Under the pieces are notes generated by a model that did no database searches, was not told the origin of the DNA, and saw only the letters and a list, made by a program, of their open reading frames with translations. A stretch of 64,000 nucleotides of DNA from an uncultured virus (IMG/VR IMGVR_UViG_2049941000_000100). Lineage: Duplodnaviria; Heunggongvirae; Uroviricota; Caudoviricetes. Where the stretch lies: the IMG/VR virus record IMGVR_UViG_2049941000_000100; one strand, 5' to 3'. The first letter of the stretch is position 1. The number at the start of each line of letters is the position of its first letter. Made by a program: the position numbers and the translations under genes. Below, piece by piece: positions 25,717 to 56,008 of the stretch.

Positions 25717-25818
25717 GTCCTACCTCCATTATACTATTTAAATCTATTTCTTTCTTTCTCTTTTGAGTTTTAATAGGATTATATTTTATTGGCTCGTGGG
25801 GTTTTTTTNNNNNNNNNN

Positions 25819-26238
25819 AATATTATTTTCTTTTAATAAAGATTCTACAATATTCTCTCCATTTGAGGACCTTTTACATCCACAAGAACTTATATTATTT
25901 CCGGTTAACTATTTACTTTTAATAATAATTTCTTTACCACAGTCACATTTGCATAAATAAGCAACATGAGGACCAATATTATCTACTCTTTTTATAACAG
26001 TTAAATATCCAAATCTTTTCCCTGTTAAATCAATCCAATTATTTTTTCCAACTGTTTTTCCATAGCAACCGCAAGACTATGTGTGCCCACTTCGTAAATA
26101 CGTACCGGTAACTATAGTTTTATTACCACAATCACAAAGACATTTCCATCTAGCTTGTCCTCTAGAGTCACTCTCTACTCTTTTAATTACAACTAAATGG
26201 CCATATCTATTTCCAGTTTCATCTATAACTTTACTCAT
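25819..26238 (-). CDS. Zn-finger repeat (CxCDCG..SCGC) homing-type endonuclease, 3' end in gap
   Basis: ETGNRYGHLVV..WKCLCDCGN..LRSGHT[TAG]SCGC, repeated twice. Confidence 0.8.
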
Positions 26239-26249
26239 ATATAATTTCC

Positions 26250-26333
26250 TCCGAATGAAATTAAATAAAGGTGAGACTTGCTTTCGGACGCATTATCTCG
26301 AAAGTTAATTACTCTTTCGCTTCTCTCAACTTT
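26250..26333 (-). ncRNA. Candidate cis-regulatory RNA: three-way junction with SD-overlapping pseudoknot, copy A
   Basis: P1-GAAG-P2-AGAUAA-P3-AG-P1'. P3 loop UCCGAA pairs with UUCGGA at the RBS. Same architecture at 52216..52304. Confidence 0.65.
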
Positions 26334-26341
26334 CTATAATA

Positions 26342-26370
26342 ATTATATCACGATTTTAATAAAAATTCAA
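26342..26370 (-). promoter_or_regulatory. Sigma-A promoter directly upstream of RNA element A
   Basis: TTGAAT-N17-TATAAT with extended -10. Confidence 0.75.
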
Positions 26371-26385
26371 ATTTTNNNNNNNNNN

Positions 26386-26636
26386 CCTTTGCACGTCATT
26401 CCATTTTTAATAAAGTTCTGAATCTGCGCATGAATCTTATAATAGTCGTATGAAACTTTGAGATCGCGCGCTATATAATCAAATATCAACGGTTCATAAT
26501 CAGAGTCAGATTTAATTTCTTTACCTTCTTTAAACTTACCATAACACGTCTTATGAAAATACCAATTACGAGAAGGCATGACCCAATCGTCTTTAGATTT
26601 ATCTATTTCTTGTTTACATACTCTACAAATCGCCAT
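26386..26636 (-). CDS. Zn-finger hypothetical protein, truncated by gap
   Basis: MAICRVCK..YFHKTC; GGGAG RBS; promoter TTGACT-N17-TATAAT at 26666-26694. Confidence 0.7.
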
Positions 26637-26747
26637 AAAATTCTCCCTATTTTCTTCCTATATATATTATACCATAGAATCGAAAAAAAGTCAAATTTAA
26701 TAGACCAGTCTAGCCATAACTAAACTGGTCTATCTTTTGTATCTATA

Positions 26748-49997: not shown

Positions 49998-50568
49998 ATG
50001 CCTGATGTAATAATAACTTATAAAAATTCTACGATTGCGGATATATCTAATTCTGGTTCTATAGTATTAAAAACCGCGGATAAATACTGCGAAGAGGATA
50101 TTATAACTACTTAGATTAGGNNNNNNNNNNAAAATAGTTGGAGAAGAAGGTATTCCTATTGCCACAAAAGGGGCGGTAGAAAATAATTCTATCTCTATTA
50201 TTCCTTCTGTTACAAATATAGGCGGATATATTGCCGGTGGTACAAGAACCGGCTCAGCCGTTACGGTATCTGCAAACGAACTTGTAAATGGAACAAAGAC
50301 AATTTCTAGTAGTGGAATAACAGATGTAACTAATTATGCGTCGGTCTCTGTCCCTGCGGGAAGTGCGACAATTACTGGGACTACCGTTACTGTAAATCCT
50401 AATATTTCAGTTAGTTCAAATGGGGTAATTACTGCGATTATAAGTAGTTCATAGACTATAACTCCAATTATTTTAGAAGGATATATTTCAGCTGGAACAG
50501 AAGGAACAATTTTAGTTAGTGGTAGTAAAACATAGTAGCTGCCACTATATAACGGGGGGGTAGAGTAA
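49998..50568 (+). CDS. Tail-associated modular protein, gapped
   Basis: ITYKNSTIA..LKTADKYCEEDI; SANELVNGTKTI..DVTNYASVSV; ends LPLYNGGVE* with TAA overlapping the next ATG. Confidence 0.65.
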
Positions 50569-52205
50569 TGCCGGTTTATGGAGATACTGCAGAACTTTAT
50601 AGTAATTATAGTTCAAATAATAATACACGTTTAGTTTATTGCGCATGGGGTACTCCACTTCCTACTATTGAATCAGCGGGTGGAACCGCCCCAACAGGAT
50701 ATACTTTTAAAGAATGGAATACAAATACGAGTGGGACAGGAACCTCTTATGCCCCTGGGGATACTACTCCATCAGTAAGTTTTTTATATGCGATATGGGA
50801 AGAAATACCTTATGACGTAACTATTTCTTATAAAGGTTCTACTATTGCTACTATGTCTAGTAGTGGTACTAAAACCCTTAATACGGCTGGAACATATTGC
50901 GAAGATGATATTACAATAGATTATACTAAAACTGGGATGACGGTAGTAGAAACTCTAGACCCTAATGGCGGTACAATAGTAAGTATTAGCGGCGACCCAG
51001 TAACTTCTCTTTAGGCTAAAACGGTTATTCCGACTAGTCAATCGCAAACTATTAGTGCAGATAGTGGGTATGATGCGATTTCGGAAGTTTTAGTTTAGGG
51101 AGATAGTAATTTAATTGGCTCTAATATTGCAAGTGGAGTTTCAATATTTGGAGTAGTTGGAACTTTTGCAGGTGGCAGTGAAGATTTAAAGAATTTTATA
51201 GAATAGTATAATACAATAACTAGTTTTTCAAATTCAGAAGTAAGCACAATTGGTGGCGGAGCTTTTGCTTGCTGCTACAACCTCACAACAGTGAATTTTC
51301 CTTCGTGTACGAGTATTGGTAGTATGGCATTTGTTTATTGTTATAGTCTTACAACGGTGAGTTTCCCTTCATGTACGAATATCGGTGATAGCGCATTTTA
51401 GTATTGTTCCAATCTTATAACAGTAAGTTTTTCTTCGTGTACGAGTATTGGTAGCTACGCATTTTAGGATTGCTTTAGTCTTACAACGGTGAGTTTCCCT
51501 TCATGTACGAATATCGGTGATAACGCATTTGCTCATTGTTACAGCCTTGCAACAGTGGACTTTCCTTCATGCACGAGTATCGGTAGTAACGCATTTTAGG
51601 ATTGCTTTAGTCTTACAACGGTGAGTTTTCCATTGTGCACTAGTGTCAATGATTATGCATTTGCTTTTTGTACCAGTCTTACAACAGTAGATATTCCTTT
51701 GTATACGAGTATCGGTGACGGGATATTTTATAATTGTACCAGTCTTACAACAGTAGATATTCCTTTGTGTACGAGTATTGGTAGCTACGCATTTGCTTAT
51801 TGTTACAATCTTACAACGGTAAGCTTTTCTTTGTGTACGAATATCGGTAGCTACGCATTTTAGAGTTGTTCCAGCCTTGTAACGGTGAGTCTTCCTCTGT
51901 GCACAAGTATCGGCATCTACGCATTTTAGTCTTGTCACAATCTTGCAACGGTGAGCTTTCCTTCGTGCACGGATATCGGTAGCTCCGCATTTCGGTATTG
52001 CTATTCTTTAGTTTCTCTATATCTTACTGGGTCGAGTGTTGCGCGACTTTGGAATTCAAACGCTTTTTCCTCTACACCAATCGCAAGATACACCACTTCA
52101 ACCGGCGGCGTTTACGGGAGTATTTTCGTTCCGTCCTCATTATATTCGACCTATATAGCATCAACTAACTGGACATACTTCTCGTCTCGAATTGTAAGCG
52201 TATAA
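50568..52205 (+). CDS. InlB B-repeat plus BspA-type (LRR_5) leucine-rich-repeat protein, 545 aa (TAG=Gln)
   Basis: Track ORFs 50568, 51621 and 51951 share one frame; 22-aa repeat CTSIGxxAFxxCxxLTTVSFPx. Confidence 0.9.
51245..52010 (+). repeat. 66-bp tandem LRR-coding repeat, about 11-12 units
   Basis: Recurring tgYacRaRtatYggt..gcattt..tgY..cttacaacRgt at 66-nt period. Confidence 0.9.
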
Positions 52206-52215
52206 AATTAATATA

Positions 52216-52304
52216 AAACGGGTAGCATAAGGGTCGCGCCCTAAGTGAGATAATGTGCCATAACACAAGCCGTTTAATAAATATAATAAATATTTTTATG
52301 GAGG
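52216..52304 (+). ncRNA. Candidate cis-regulatory RNA: three-way junction with SD-overlapping pseudoknot, copy B
   Basis: AAACGG-GUAG-P2-AGAUAA-UGUG CCAUAA CACA-AG-CCGUUU; loop CCAUAA pairs with UUAUGG (52296-301), which overlaps GGAGG. Confidence 0.65.
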
Positions 52305-52309
52305 TATTT

Positions 52310-53405
52310 ATGAAACTTCAAATTTTAGTTCCCCAATATCACGAAACAGGCGAAATTATTAAACCTTTATTAGATTCAATNNNNNNNNNNAAACAGACGA
52401 AATTATTAAACCTTTATTAGATTCAATCGCATTACAATAGGCAGTTTCTATGGAAGAAATAGGAGTTATAATTTGTAATGATGGGTCAGATGTTCGTCTT
52501 TCAGAAAAACTTTTAAATTCTTATCCTTTTAAAGTTGAATATTATCTTGAGCCTCATCGTGGCGTAAGTGGCACTCGTAATGCATGTTTTAATCATGCGA
52601 CCGCAGATTATGTAATGTTTTGTGATGCGGATGATATGTTCTGTAATGTATGCGGTTTATGGATAATATTTAGAGAAATGCAAGGGAATGGGTTTGATAG
52701 CTTAGTTTCGGTATTTATTGAAGAATCACGTCTTCCGCAAGATATGCCTGAGCAAAGAGATTAGATGGGGAATGTAGTGATGCCCGCTATGAAAAAGGGC
52801 AGTCCAATGTTTATTAACCATGATATGGATTCAACATTTGTCCATGGAAAAGTTCATCGTCGTCAATATTTACTTAACCAAAATATTCGTTGGAATGAGA
52901 AGCTTACTATCCATGAAGATAGTTTCTTTAATATCCAATGCTAGAATCTTTCAACAAATGTAAAGTATTGCTAGACGCCATTTTATTTATGGAAATGGAG
53001 AGATGAAAGTGTTTGTCGGCATGACCCGAAATATATACTTNNNNNNNNNNAACTTATAAAAATATGATTGATAGTAACGATGCGCTTGTAGATGAATTTT
53101 TGAAGCGTAACGTAAAAAATAAAGCTATGTTCTTTACTGGGTTCCTTATTTTTGATGCGTATTATTTAATGAATAAACCTGAATGGCGCGATTAGGAAAA
53201 TAAATAATATAGAGATAGTACGGAAAAATATTTTGCAAAGTATTATAAAAAGAGAAAGAAATTATGGAATCAAATTTCTGATAGTGATAAAATGCAAATA
53301 TCTAACCAAATTCGTACTCGTTCGGTAAATGAAGGAATGATGATGGAGAATGTTACGATTGACAATTGGTTAAAACATATTGAAAAACTTAACAAAGATA
53401 GATAA
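52310..53405 (+). CDS. Family 2 glycosyltransferase (TAG=Gln; gaps; in-frame TAA at 53205)
   Basis: LQILVPQYHE..LLDSI..ICNDGSD..GVSGTRN..YVMFCDADD..VHGKVHRRQYL..HEDSFFN. Confidence 0.85.
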
Positions 53406-53439
53406 ATATAGAAATATATTTAAAAAGTGAGGTAGAAAA

Positions 53440-54345
53440 ATGGCTGTTGCAAAAGTCATATTAAATGGAAATACTTTAATTGATGTTACGGATAAAACTG
53501 TAGCTAGTTCAAATTTAGTATCTCCAAATACCGCATTGGGCGCCGATGGAACAACTGTGACCGGCGCGTTAGTAGCAAAAAGTGCGTCAGATGTAACTGT
53601 GTCTGGCGCTACAACAACAATACCTGCGGGAGTTTATTCTTCACAGGTTTAGAAAACAGTTAGTAGCGGGACGGCGGGAACGCCTACTGCAACGAAAGGG
53701 ACAGTTAGTAGTAATTCTGTTACTGTCACGCCGTCTGTTACAAATACTACAGGATATATTACCGGTGGAACTTTAACAGGTACCGCAGTGAATGTATCAG
53801 CTTCCGAATTGGTTAGTGGTACTAAAAATATTACGGCCTCCGGAACAGTTGATGTAACGAACTATGCATCAGCATCCGTAGCGGCAGGTTCTGTATCTAT
53901 TTCTGCTACTACTATTACAGCGAATCCAACTATTAATATAAATGATACTACAGGTGTAATTACAGCATCGAATAATACTACATAGAACGTTACTCCTACC
54001 GTGAGTGCAGGATACGTTTCAAGCGGTACGGCGGGGACAATTACGGTTAGTGGAAGTAATACGTTAACAATTCCTCCGTGGAGTGGGGGAAGCTATGGGA
54101 AAATTATAATTACGCTTACAGTTAGTGGGTCAAGTTATTCTGCGGAAAGTGGCATGACATGGGAATAGTTTATTGCGAGTGAATATAATACAGCAAATTG
54201 GGTAGTAGGTAGTGATGGATATATTTATCCTAGTAGTGGTGGTCGACATAATTTAGCATATAGGATTGACTAGGGTCCGGATATATATATTAAAAAAAAT
54301 GATATTGTCGACCCTAATATAATTTATATTTGGTCCATGTGGTAA
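53440..54345 (+). CDS. Ser/Thr-rich tail-associated modular protein (TAG=Gln)
   Basis: MAVAKVILNGNTLIDVTDKTV..GADGTTVTG; joins track ORFs 53440 and 53788. Confidence 0.8.
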
Positions 54346-54374
54346 TATATAGTATTATAATGAGGTGAAATAAA

Positions 54375-55562
54375 ATGGCGTTAGATAAATTAATAGATAG
54401 CGCGCGTCTTGACGGCGCATTATCCGCCACTGCAACCGCTATTCTTTCAAAAACCGGTGGTTCAACTCCTTTGACATGGGATATGGATGAAGGTTTCGCT
54501 GATGTAATAGAAGATATCCCAACAGGCGGAGGCGGAGACAGTTCAAAAGACTTCATCGAGCAACATAATTGGATAACAAGTTTTACAGATAGCACAATAA
54601 GTGTCATTGGAGCAGGGGCATTTGCATATTGCTATAGCCTTACAGAGGTAAGTATTCCTTCGTGCACAAGTATCGGTAGCTACGCATTTTAGTAGTGTCT
54701 CAAACTTACAACGGCGAGTTTTTCTTTGTGTACGAGTATCGGTAGCTACGCATTTTCTAATTGTTCTAGTCTTACAACGGTAAGTTTCCCTTCGTGCACA
54801 AGTATCGGTGGCTACGCATTTTATTCTTGTTACAATCTTACAACGGTAAGTTTCCCTTCATGTACGAATATCGGTGGCTACGCATTTTAGTATTGTTCCA
54901 GGCTTACAACGGTAAATTTCCCTTCGTGCACGACTATTGGTAACTACGCATTTTATTCTTGTTCCAAACTTACAACGGTAAGTATTCCTTTGTGTACGAG
55001 TATCGGTGCCTACGCATTTTAGAGTTGTTTTAGTCTTACAACGGTAAGTTTTTCTTCGTGTACGTATATCGGTAACTACGCATTTTCTAATTGCTCTAGT
55101 CTTACAACGGTAAGTATTCCTTTGTGTACGAGTATTGATAATGGTGCATTTACATGGTGTTCCAATCTTACAACGGTAAGCTTTTCTTTGTGTACGAGTA
55201 TCGGTAGCTACGCATTTTCTAATTGTTCTAGTCTTACAACGGTGAGTCTTCCTCTGTGTACGAGTATCAAGAACTAGGTATTTGCATTTTGTTCCAGCCT
55301 TACAACGGTGAGCTTTCCTTCGTGTACGAGTATCGGTAGCTTCACATTCAGAGCATGCTATCGTCTAGTGTCTTTGTATCTTACTGGTTCAAGCATTGCA
55401 TTTTTGTCGAATTCAAATGCATTTTCATCAACTCCAATAGAAGGATATACGACTTATACTAATGGAGTTTACGGGAGCATTTTCGTTCCATCCTCATTAT
55501 ATTCGTCCTATATCGCATCGACAAACTGGACATATTTCTCATCTCGATTCGTGAGTGTATAA
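54375..55562 (+). CDS. Second BspA-type LRR protein, 395 aa (TAG=Gln)
   Basis: Same 22-aa repeat and near-identical C-terminal cap (GSIFVPSSLYSxYIASTNWTYFSSR) as 50568..52205. Confidence 0.9.
54600..55370 (+). repeat. 66-bp tandem LRR-coding repeat, about 11-12 units
   Basis: 66-nt periodicity; homologous to 51245..52010. Confidence 0.9.
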
Positions 55563-55768
55563 ATAATTAATATAAAACGGGGTGAGTTTTTAATTATGAG
55601 TAATTATTTAACAACAGGTATAGAATTAACTTCTATTGCTAATGCTATTCATACTGTGGGAGGTACTTCGGCTTCGTTAATATATCCGAGTGGGTTTATT
55701 AGTGCGATTTAGGGAATTTAGCCGAGTTTAGAAAGTTTAACGATAAATGAAAATAGGAGATTAAATGT

Positions 55769-56008
55769 ATGGTAATTTATGAACGTATAAAAGATACCGA
55801 TTTAATTCTTGCATATTCAAACAATAATATGAAGATACGCTCCGATGAAACTGGAGCTATATATGAAGAAGCAATAGATCCAGATTTCTGTAATAGGACT
55901 TATACAGAAACAGATGAACCAATAGATGATATACTAACTTCTGAGCAAATAGTTGAAACTATTTTTGGAAATGGAGAAATTTCTGAGCAGTCGGAGGAAG
56001 AAGAATGA
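55769..56008 (+). CDS. Small acidic tail-associated protein
   Basis: GGAG RBS; ETGAIYEEAID..RTYTETDEPI. Confidence 0.7.
   Translation: MVIYERIKDTDLILAYSNNNMKIRSDETGAIYEEAIDPDFCNRTYTETDEPIDDILTSEQIVETIFGNGEISEQSEEEE

What the first reader, a model, noticed from the sequence alone, without database searches (positions are those of the whole stretch)
52216..52312. Unrecognised structured RNA family (copy B): three-way junction whose loop pairs over the Shine-Dalgarno of a glycosyltransferase gene
Seen: P1 AAACGG/CCGUUU, linker GUAG, P2 CAU-a-AGGG ucgcg CCCU-aa-GUG, linker AGAUAA, P3 UGUG/CACA with loop CCAUAA, linker AG. The loop is complementary to UUAUGG, which overlaps GGAGG just before ATG 52310. 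An element 26 kb away on the other strand keeps the same junction nucleotides (GWAG, AGAUAA, AG) while stems and pseudoknot differ in sequence and still pair. Inference: a conserved translational control element (riboswitch-like, protein-binding or ribozyme-like) reused ahead of unrelated genes. I do not recognise the family.
Basis: partly seen in the sequence, partly recalled or inferred. Interest (0 to 1): 0.85.

Follow-up and report, generated by a model that had tools for sequence, protein, structure and literature searches.

The report
Kissing-loop leader RNA before phage nucleases
The folded RNA in front of this cattle-gut phage's sugar-transferase gene is real and belongs to a large uncatalogued family that normally sits before selfish DNA-cutting-enzyme genes and buries their ribosome-binding site, most likely to keep them barely translated.

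Summary
Observation confirmed. Copy B (52216-52275, then SD and ATG 52310) and copy A (26329-26271, minus strand) have the same three-way junction. A covariance model built from them and five relatives found 95 distinct cores in viral and metagenome contigs. None matches Rfam.

Covariation is strong: 15 of 16 modelled pairs carry double changes. The P3 loop is perfectly complementary (6 nt or more) to the downstream SD region in 97 of 107 unique elements, against 5.6% of mismatched controls.

New points:
- The SD lies in the loop of a fourth hairpin (P4), so the contact is a fully paired loop-loop kiss.
- The P2 loop carries a 6-nt palindrome in 52 of 57 distinct P2 sequences (six different palindromes), which suggests RNA homodimers.
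- At least 46 of 56 downstream genes examined are homing-type endonucleases (GIY-YIG, HNH, PD-(D/E)XK).
- 28 of 107 elements start within 5 nt of a tRNA gene's 3' end.

Copy B is atypical. It has a 22-nt P2, only a 4-nt palindrome, and a GT2 gene downstream; only 4 of 80 GT2 relatives carry the element.

Best reading: a portable translational lock. The release signal is unknown. Nothing was tested at the bench.

The parts
52216..52221 (+). Copy B, P1 5' strand (AAACGG)
   Evidence: Pairs with 52270-52275. P1 covaries in the family (6 of 6 pairs with double changes).
52222..52225 (+). Copy B, junction J1/2 (GTAG)
   Evidence: GWAG in all family members, but every collection scan required it.
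52226..52247 (+). Copy B, P2 hairpin. Atypical: 22 nt, with CAT/GTG and AGGG/CCCT stems. The loop holds only the 4-nt palindrome CGCG.
   Evidence: Typical members have 21 nt, a 6-bp stem and a 9-nt loop.
52248..52253 (+). Copy B, junction J2/3 (AGATAA)
52254..52267 (+). Copy B, P3 hairpin (TGTG/CACA) with anti-SD loop L3 CCATAA at 52258-52263
52268..52269 (+). Copy B, junction J3/1 (AG)
52270..52275 (+). Copy B, P1 3' strand (CCGTTT)
52286..52311 (+). Copy B, P4 hairpin. Its loop L4 TTATGG (52296-52301) pairs with L3. SD GGAGG is 52300-52304, and the 3' strand runs into the start codon.
   Evidence: 10 flanking pairs, offset 0,0.
52310..53067 (+). Downstream gene: GT2 glycosyltransferase, read with TAG=Q. 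The assembly breaks it with N at 52381-52390.
   Evidence: PF00535, E 1.2e-10.
50568..52205 (+). Upstream ORF (545 aa with TAG=Q). It ends 10 nt before P1.
26271..26329 (-). Copy A, three-way-junction core. P1 is 26324-26328 with 26272-26276. GAAG is 26320-26323 and P2 26299-26319, whose loop AGTAATTAA holds the palindrome TAATTA. AGATAA is 26293-26298 and P3 26279-26292, with L3 TCCGAA at 26283-26288. AG is 26277-26278.
   Evidence: (71.5 bits).
26242..26263 (-). Copy A, P4 hairpin (7 pairs). The loop holds TTCGGA at 26250-26255. SD GGAGG is 26248-26252.
25819..26238 (-). Copy A, downstream gene: zinc-ribbon-repeat protein of a PHROG annotated HNH endonuclease. It is cut off by N at 25809-25818.
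   Evidence: phrog_374, E 1.8e-39.
26342..26370 (-). Promoter-like site TTGAAT-17-TATAAT with TG, ending 12 nt before copy A's P1.
   Evidence: 10 of 12 matches. Such sites are about as frequent as in shuffles.

Best explanation
The element is a member of a large, uncatalogued family of cis-acting mRNA leaders that lock translation initiation.

Architecture. A three-way junction (P1, P2, P3, joined by GWAG, AGAUAA and AG) holds out the P3 loop (L3). The 6-7 nucleotides of L3 pair completely with the loop (L4) of a fourth hairpin, P4, just downstream. L4 is the Shine-Dalgarno region, and the 3' strand of P4 reaches to or into the start codon. P3, the L3:L4 kiss and P4 together would therefore bury the ribosome-binding site. 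This step is inferred from sequence and covariation and has not been shown at the bench.

Context. The leader is a portable module. It sits at the 5' end of the message, directly after a tRNA gene or a promoter-like site. It usually heads free-standing homing-type endonuclease genes of several unrelated nuclease families, where tight limitation of translation is the known rule in T-even phages.

Copy B. This copy belongs to a small side branch that has come to stand before a glycosyltransferase gene. It keeps P1, the junction, P3 and the kiss, but its P2 has drifted.

P2 loop. In most members the P2 loop is self-complementary. I infer that two leaders can pair through it. What that does, and what releases the lock, is unknown.
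For: Family and structure
- Model R1 matched 47 of 64, 46 of 73 and 66 of 66 loci found by three sequence patterns. That gives 95 distinct cores.
- On 38 distinct rows, 94.3% of cells pair against 64.8% in shuffles. 15 of 16 pairs show changes on both sides, and 0 of 500 shuffles reach the covariation score. Slid controls pair at 21-47%.

Kiss
- 97 of 107 unique elements carry a perfect complement of L3, 6 nt or longer, within 50 nt downstream. Only 5.6% of 10,792 mismatched loop/downstream pairings do. There are 40 distinct loop/site pairs, and all 97 sites overlap an SD-like purine run.

P4
- In 83 of 97 elements the site is flanked, with no offset, by an inverted repeat. The stem is 4-11 pairs in 94 of 97.

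Downstream genes (56 examined)
- Pfam: GIY-YIG 16, HNH types 14, PDDEXK_5 4, NUMOD3 1, DUF7487 5, GT2 2, HTH only 1, none 13.
- Of 13 left unexplained and sent to PHROGs, 11 match endonuclease or homing-endonuclease PHROGs, copy A's gene among them.

Portability
- L142 and L161 share the leader up to the ATG and then encode a GIY-YIG and an HNH protein respectively. L149 and L158 share only the leader.

5'-terminal position
- 28 of 107 elements begin within -5 to +5 nt of a tRNA gene's 3' end, involving 17 tRNA species.
- A promoter-like site ends 12 nt before copy A's P1.

Precedent
- RBS-sequestering RNA structures control I-TevI, I-TevII, I-TevIII, segB and mobE (PMC2988022, passages read).
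Against: - No experiment. Pairing and repression are inferred.
- The single-sequence fold of copy B is not better than shuffles (z -1.24). The MFE of copy A does not draw P1.
- A plain anti-SD hairpin would suffice for a lock. The conserved junction and the palindromic P2 loop point to something more, such as a ligand, a protein or a partner RNA, which this reading leaves unexplained.
- No release mechanism was found. An internal promoter-like site in copy B (52260-52287) is no more than chance gives (1 found, 1.1 expected).
- Junction conservation is partly circular, because every collection pattern required GWAGC and GAGATAA.
- Copy B itself precedes a glycosyltransferase, not a nuclease.
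- The commonest P2 palindrome (TAATTA) would give a very weak duplex (-0.4 kcal/mol).
Confidence: 0.75

Rival explanations
1. Riboswitch. The conserved junction binds a small molecule, for instance one that marks the stage of infection, and binding sets whether L3 kisses L4.
For: The layout resembles a riboswitch: strongly conserved junction letters amid covarying stems, an SD-sequestering tertiary contact serving as expression platform, and several copies per genome in front of one functional class of genes.
Against: The genes are selfish nucleases of unrelated families, not a metabolic pathway. No Rfam riboswitch matches even at E 10. No alternative (ligand-free) pairing partner for L3 or L4 was seen. 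Junction conservation is inflated by my search patterns. Variants AGACGAA and AGATGAA exist.
Confidence: 0.1
2. Operator for a trans-acting factor. A phage or host RNA-binding protein, or a small RNA, recognises the junction or the P2 loop and stabilises or opens the lock, giving temporal control.
For: The P2 loop and the junction are the only sequence-constant, exposed features shared by copies that otherwise differ. All copies in a phage could then be switched together (3 strong matches in a complete 169-kb genome).
Against: Six or seven different palindromic P2 loops occur. A single sequence-specific protein would not tolerate that range. Self-complementarity of a loop is irrelevant to protein binding. 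No candidate protein was identified.
Confidence: 0.15
3. Self-cleaving or processing element. The junction is a catalytic core or a nuclease entry site that separates the nuclease mRNA from the tRNA precursor upstream.
For: About a dozen conserved junction nucleotides in a three-way junction with tertiary loop contacts. 28 of 107 copies abut a tRNA 3' end.
Against: No match to any ribozyme family in Rfam. Copies behind promoters or ORFs (copies A and B) have nothing to be cut from. The precise SD complementarity is unexplained by cleavage.
Confidence: 0.04
4. A 5'-end protector or insulator. The main task of P1 and the junction is to give the processed message a structured 5' end, or to keep the neighbouring tRNA folding and processing undisturbed. 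SD pairing is secondary.
For: The element always lies at the predicted 5' end of the message: after a tRNA, after a promoter-like site (L029 upstream), or 10 nt after a stop codon. The review notes that limiting ribosome access protects folding of the surrounding structured RNA in the td intron (PMC2988022).
Against: This does not explain why L3 tracks each gene's own SD (40 distinct pairs), nor P4. It is compatible with the best explanation rather than exclusive of it.
Confidence: 0.1

Closest known systems
RBS-sequestering RNA structures of T-even phage homing-endonuclease genes (I-TevI, I-TevII, I-TevIII, segB; mobE of Aeh1). Source: PMC2988022, passages read.
   Same: A cis RNA structure hides the SD of a mobile endonuclease gene so that it is poorly translated. 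The genes include free-standing ones, some in a tRNA cluster.
   Different: The T-even structures are simple, gene-specific hairpins relieved by a late promoter placed inside them. Here there is one conserved, portable four-helix family (three-way junction plus kissing hairpin) shared by at least four nuclease families. No internal promoter is supported, and there is an extra self-complementary loop.
Dimerisation-initiation hairpin of HIV-1 (kissing-loop dimer). Its architecture is recalled, not tested. A review of RNA dimers, PMC7357161, was seen in a search listing only.
   Same: A 9-nt hairpin loop made of two 5' flanking nucleotides, a 6-nt palindrome and one 3' nucleotide. The palindrome changes between lineages but stays a palindrome.
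   Different: The setting is a phage mRNA leader, not a retroviral genome. Dimerisation has not been shown. The commonest palindrome is all A/U and weak. Copy B lacks the 6-nt palindrome.
SD-sequestering pseudoknot riboswitches (preQ1-II/III, SAM-II types). Recalled; PMC11625349 was seen in a search listing only.
   Same: A tertiary pairing that includes the SD serves as the expression platform. The core is conserved and the stems covary.
   Different: No Rfam match. No metabolic gene association. The SD is presented in a hairpin loop and kissed, not drawn into an H-type pseudoknot. No ligand is known.
Fully paired loop-loop complexes of antisense control (ColE1 RNA I/RNA II type). Recalled; PMC4872101 abstract was seen in a listing.
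   Same: Two hairpin loops of 6-7 nt pair over their whole length.
   Different: Here both hairpins lie in one molecule and the target loop is the ribosome-binding site.
Mobile regulatory cassettes (promoter-early stem-loops) of T4-type phages. PMC2839356, abstract seen in a listing only.
   Same: Short repeated regulatory modules that recur in front of different optional genes and mark recombination joints.
   Different: Those are promoter plus stem-loop DNA repeats. This is an RNA fold maintained by compensatory change, with gene-specific anti-SD loops.

Membership tests
Any Rfam 15 family (riboswitches, ribozymes, leaders, HEARO, ROOL, GOLLD and others) | Match to the family's covariance model | tested here: not met
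   0 matches at gathering score in the whole window. 0 at E up to 10 in 52100-52400. In five homologous loci at E up to 1, only tRNA matched.
The new leader family itself (model R1) | P1-GWAG-P2-AGAUAA-P3-AG-P1' three-way junction with covarying stems | tested here: met
   Copy B scores 66.3 bits and copy A 71.5 bits.
The new leader family itself (model R1) | L3 fully complementary to the SD-bearing loop of a downstream hairpin P4 | tested here: met
   Copy B: CCATAA with TTATGG, P4 of 10 pairs. Copy A: TCCGAA with TTCGGA, P4 of 7 pairs. Family: 97 of 107.
The new leader family itself (model R1) | 21-nt P2 whose 9-nt loop holds a 6-nt palindrome at loop positions 3-8 | tested here: not met
   Copy B has a 22-nt P2 and only CGCG. 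Copy A meets the feature (TAATTA). Family: 52 of 57 distinct P2 sequences. Copy B is therefore a divergent member, as are its GT2-linked relatives L326, L270 and L327.
The new leader family itself (model R1) | Stands before a homing-type endonuclease gene | tested here: not met
   Copy B precedes a GT2 gene. Copy A precedes a phrog_374 HNH-endonuclease-type gene.
T-even type translational control of homing endonucleases | RBS occluded by RNA structure | tested here: met
   Met by sequence and covariation only. No biochemical test.
T-even type translational control of homing endonucleases | A late promoter placed so that late transcripts lack the inhibitory strand | tested here: inconclusive
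   One sigma-70-like site lies inside copy B (52260-52287), but 1.1 are expected by chance. In most relatives the linker is too short to hold both a promoter and a start site before the SD. Phage-specific promoters cannot be scanned.
Riboswitch | Specific small-molecule binding that changes the fold | not testable with these tools
   No ligand assay is possible. The gene context argues against it.
Kissing-loop RNA homodimer (DIS-like) | Self-complementary loop maintained by compensatory change | tested here: met
   Met for the family. Palindromes seen: TAATTA, TAGCTA, TCATGA, TGATCA, TTGCAA, TCGCGA and TGGCCA. Four of the five non-palindromic hexamers are one change from an observed palindrome. 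There is no second copy of the hexamer within 300 nt. For copy B only a 4-nt palindrome is present.
Kissing-loop RNA homodimer (DIS-like) | Dimer formation in solution | not testable with these tools
   Nearest-neighbour duplex energies run from -0.4 to -9.1 kcal/mol. They say little about kissing complexes.

The most novel reading that the evidence does not exclude
The leader is a natural RNA homodimer. Two nuclease mRNAs, or two copies of the leader in one cell, join through the palindromic P2 loop, possibly with L3 of one kissing L4 of the other. Translation of the selfish nuclease would then depend on the concentration or identity of sister transcripts. That would act as a copy-number or co-infection sensor built only of RNA, and would be the first dimerising mRNA leader in bacteria or phages.
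Probability: 0.3. Interest if true: 0.88.

Novelty: new variant of a known kind. Interest (0 to 1): 0.75.

Why it matters
Homing endonucleases are the commonest selfish genes of phages. How they are kept harmless has been worked out only for a handful of T-even genes, each with its own hairpin. Here a single, portable, elaborately folded leader serves at least four unrelated nuclease families in many uncultivated phages. That implies a shared control logic which travels between genes.

The family is a well-supported addition to the catalogue of structured RNAs: 95 distinct cores, with covariation in every helix and in a tertiary contact. It offers a compact natural kissing-loop lock for engineering. 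Through its self-complementary loop it is also a candidate for a functional RNA-RNA dimer, something rarely documented in nature.

It also shows how such a leader can be handed on to an ordinary gene, as with copy B's glycosyltransferase.

Tried and rejected
- Rfam at gathering and at permissive thresholds: nothing.
- GenBank phages. Megablast of 50000-56000 gave no match. Blastn of a typical leader gave 9 records, all at E 4 and none covering 80%.
- R1 on Bacillus phage SPBc2 (whole record): no match at E 10. R1 on Enterococcus phage EFP01, which holds a PDDEXK_5 relative: only a 21-nt partial match at 12.2 bits, E 0.84. No cultured example was found. This is only two records and proves nothing about cultured phages.
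- No whole genome is held for the window.
- Genome contigs pattern scan (TAATTA subtype only): 3 loci, of which 1 is a true match, a 1569-nt contig of a Lachnospiraceae MAG that also holds tRNAs. This is too little to name a host.
- The first pattern was too strict in P3 and too loose overall: only 5 of 139 matches passed my stem filter.
- T4-style internal promoter: not supported.
- A second intramolecular partner for the P2 palindrome: none within 300 nt.
- RNA runs. Contigs from three libraries on record as RNA cover parts of the element: X17 covers 52109-52259 with 0 differences, X18 covers 52189-52380 with 5, and X20 covers 52212-52349 with 4 and adaptor-like ends. The tool warns that DNA can be in such libraries and that contigs show no ends. 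I therefore draw no conclusion on transcription, start site or processing.
- Literature: four full-text searches listed no paper whose title or abstract describes this leader. Only one paper was opened.
- Hammerhead, twister, pistol and tRNA-like resemblances were considered from memory and dropped. The order and content of the junction strands do not fit, and Rfam finds nothing.

Full report
**Setting.** The window reads as phage DNA in which TAG is a sense codon. Under table 11 there are 29 ORFs of 150 aa or more; with TAG=Q there are 51, and they tile the sequence. The window holds no tRNA gene and 3231 N. It has no near relative among GenBank phages. The public runs that hold the stretch are labelled bovine gut metagenomes. 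No whole genome is held.

**The observation.** The second copy is on the minus strand at 26329-26271. A pattern made of the shared junction letters hits the window twice, against 0.00 expected. Rfam 15 has no match at gathering score in the window and none at E up to 10 around the element. Folding copy B alone recovers the three helices but is not better than shuffles (z -1.24). The case therefore rests on homologues.

**Homologues.** A first, over-strict pattern scan of viral contigs returned 118 loci, most of them chance. Five passed a stem filter, and all five had the P3-loop complement 18-21 nt downstream. From these five and the two window copies I built alignment A1 and model R1. R1 finds only the two copies in the window, at 71.5 and 66.3 bits, with the next place at 10.6 bits (filters off). 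Three further pattern scans gave:
- 47 matches in 64 viral loci;
- 46 in 73 viral loci;
- 66 in 66 metagenome loci.

Together this is 95 distinct cores and 107 unique elements when 40 nt downstream are included. Complete phage records hold one to four copies. The one scan of species-representative bacterial genomes, restricted to one loop subtype, gave a single true hit on a 1.5-kb contig of a Lachnospiraceae MAG.

One caveat applies throughout. All patterns demanded GWAGC and GAGATAA, so the apparent invariance of the junction is partly built in. Model hits that were not pattern-selected show AGACGAA, AGATGAA and GG in place of AG.

**Structure.** On 38 distinct rows, 94.3% of cells pair against 64.8% in shuffles. 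15 of 16 modelled pairs have changes on both sides, 0 of 500 shuffles reach the covariation score, and sliding the partners drops pairing to 21-47%.

The tertiary contact is stronger still. In 97 of 107 unique elements the P3 loop has a perfect complement of 6 or 7 nt within 50 nt downstream, against 5.6% of 10,792 deliberately mismatched loop/downstream pairs. There are 40 different loop/site pairs, and every site overlaps an SD-like run. Of the ten failures, two are weak model hits (L134, L165) and one has lost its gene and is followed by a tRNA gene (L127). L139 has a stunted P3 and L378 has no complement nearby. The other five carry only a 4-5-nt complement in the SD region.

The SD is therefore the loop of a fourth hairpin (P4), and the contact is a fully paired loop-loop kiss. 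The start codon follows the site by mostly 8-12 nt, at or inside the 3' strand of P4. In copy B, P4 is 52286-52295 with 52302-52311. In copy A it is 26263-26257 with 26248-26242.

**The P2 loop.** P2 is normally 21 nt, with a 6-bp stem and a 9-nt loop. In the two scans that left P2 free, 52 of 57 distinct P2 sequences carry a perfect 6-nt palindrome at loop positions 3-8. Six different palindromes occur there: TAATTA, TAGCTA, TCATGA, TGATCA, TTGCAA and TCGCGA. Of the five non-palindromic hexamers, four are one change from an observed palindrome and TCGCTC is two changes away. For example, TCGCTA lies between TAGCTA and TCGCGA. A seventh palindrome, TGGCCA, occurs in a model hit. A random hexamer is a palindrome one time in 64.

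The hexamer has no second copy within 300 nt, and adjacent loop bases cannot pair with each other within one loop. The simplest reading is therefore pairing between two molecules. Against this, the commonest palindrome is all A/U, with a computed duplex of -0.4 kcal/mol; the others range from -4.5 to -9.1. Dimerisation is untested.

**Context.** I examined 56 downstream proteins: 32, and 24 of the 48 listed. Pfam gives GIY-YIG 16, HNH-type 14, PDDEXK_5 4, NUMOD3 1, DUF7487 5, GT2 2, HTH only 1 and none 13. Of 13 left unexplained and sent to PHROGs, 11 match families annotated as HNH, homing or other endonuclease. Copy A's gene is among them (phrog_374, E 1.8e-39). At least 46 of 56 are thus endonuclease-type genes.

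The leader is a module of its own. L142 and L161 are 95-97% identical from about 420 nt upstream to the ATG, and then encode a GIY-YIG and an HNH protein. L170 and L141 do the same. L149 and L158, and L223 and L202, share the leader alone.

Upstream, 28 of 107 elements begin within -5 to +5 nt of the 3' end of a tRNA gene (17 tRNA species; per-locus table). Others follow promoter-like sites that end about 10 nt before P1 (L029). The leader therefore sits at the expected 5' end of the message.

**Copy B in particular.** Its downstream gene is a GT2 glycosyltransferase. Among 80 loci encoding relatives of that protein (of 180 found), only 4 carry an R1 match in front of it. In the ten non-matching loci that I read, the gene follows the upstream ORF after a short spacer. 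The metagenome scan added one more GT2-linked copy (L399), with the same L3 (CCATAA) and a canonical 21-nt P2 whose loop is one change from a palindrome.

Within this side branch P2 drifts: 22 nt with GGGTCGCGCCC in copy B and L267, a TAGCT variant in L270, and a 4-bp stump in L327. P1, P3, the kiss and P4 are all kept, and the junction letters nearly so (AGACGAA, AGATGAA and GG for AG occur here). Copy B is thus a genuine but atypical member. It is plausibly a leader left in front of an ordinary gene; that last point is inference.

**Mechanism.** What the sequences show is a conserved four-helix fold whose tertiary kiss always contains the gene's own SD. What I infer is that the kiss plus P4 blocks 30S binding, giving a default-off translational lock. 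This matches the published rule for T-even homing endonucleases, whose RBS is occluded by RNA structure (PMC2988022, passages read).

What releases the lock is unknown. An internal promoter as in T4 is not supported. The conserved junction and the palindromic loop suggest an added layer, and they keep the dimer, ligand and protein readings alive. Contigs from RNA libraries overlap the element but cannot show transcription or ends.

**Known or new.** Four full-text searches listed no paper whose title or abstract describes this leader, and Rfam lacks it. The principle (an RBS lock on homing endonucleases) is known. The conserved portable fold, the kissing-loop topology and the self-complementary loop are not.

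Earlier notes of this scan report look-alike leaders before nucleases in other phages, two of them also noting a self-complementary loop. I read them after reaching the same points. They are unchecked AI notes and not independent support. My one test of their setting, R1 on SPBc2 itself, found nothing.

Noticed in passing
whole window: TAG is read as a sense codon. ORFs of 150 aa or more rise from 29 to 51 with TAG=Q and then tile the window. Relatives carry tRNA genes with anticodon CTA directly upstream of the leader (L128, L265).
   Followed up: partly
52343-52428: The run of 10 N at 52381-52390 is flanked by a 38-nt duplicate with one difference (GGC against GAC). This looks like two overlapping contig ends that were scaffolded rather than merged. 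The close relative L267 reads straight through, so the GT2 gene is probably intact. Similar N runs lie at 26376-26385 and 25809-25818.
   Followed up: partly
L067 454-596 (-) = L143: Rfam's tRNA model matches a tRNA gene with a 73-nt insertion in the anticodon loop (58 bits). ARAGORN misses it. It ends right at the leader's P1. It may be an intron-bearing phage tRNA.
   Followed up: no
L127 770-939 (-): A leader copy with an intact junction but no SD partner is followed by a tRNA gene instead of a nuclease gene. It may be a relic left after loss of the endonuclease.
   Followed up: no
L124 1501-1567 (+), L126 1501-1560 (-): Weaker model hits (26.7 and 15.5 bits) in the same phage records have altered junctions (UA for GWAG, TGATAA for AGATAA) but recognisable P1, P2 and P3. 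The family probably reaches further than model R1 sees.
   Followed up: no
50568-52205 (+): The upstream 545-aa ORF (TAG=Q) ends in a motif conserved across relatives of the GT2 locus (...SIYVP.SL...Y....NW..F..R...). It may be a tail or surface protein. It was not analysed.
   Followed up: no
26620-26720 (-): A second strong promoter-like site (TTGACT-17-TATAAT with TG, 11 of 12 matches) lies at 26694-26666, before a small ORF starting at ATG 26635. Both leader-bearing transcription units in this part of the window may have sigma-70-like promoters, which fits a Firmicutes-type host.
   Followed up: no
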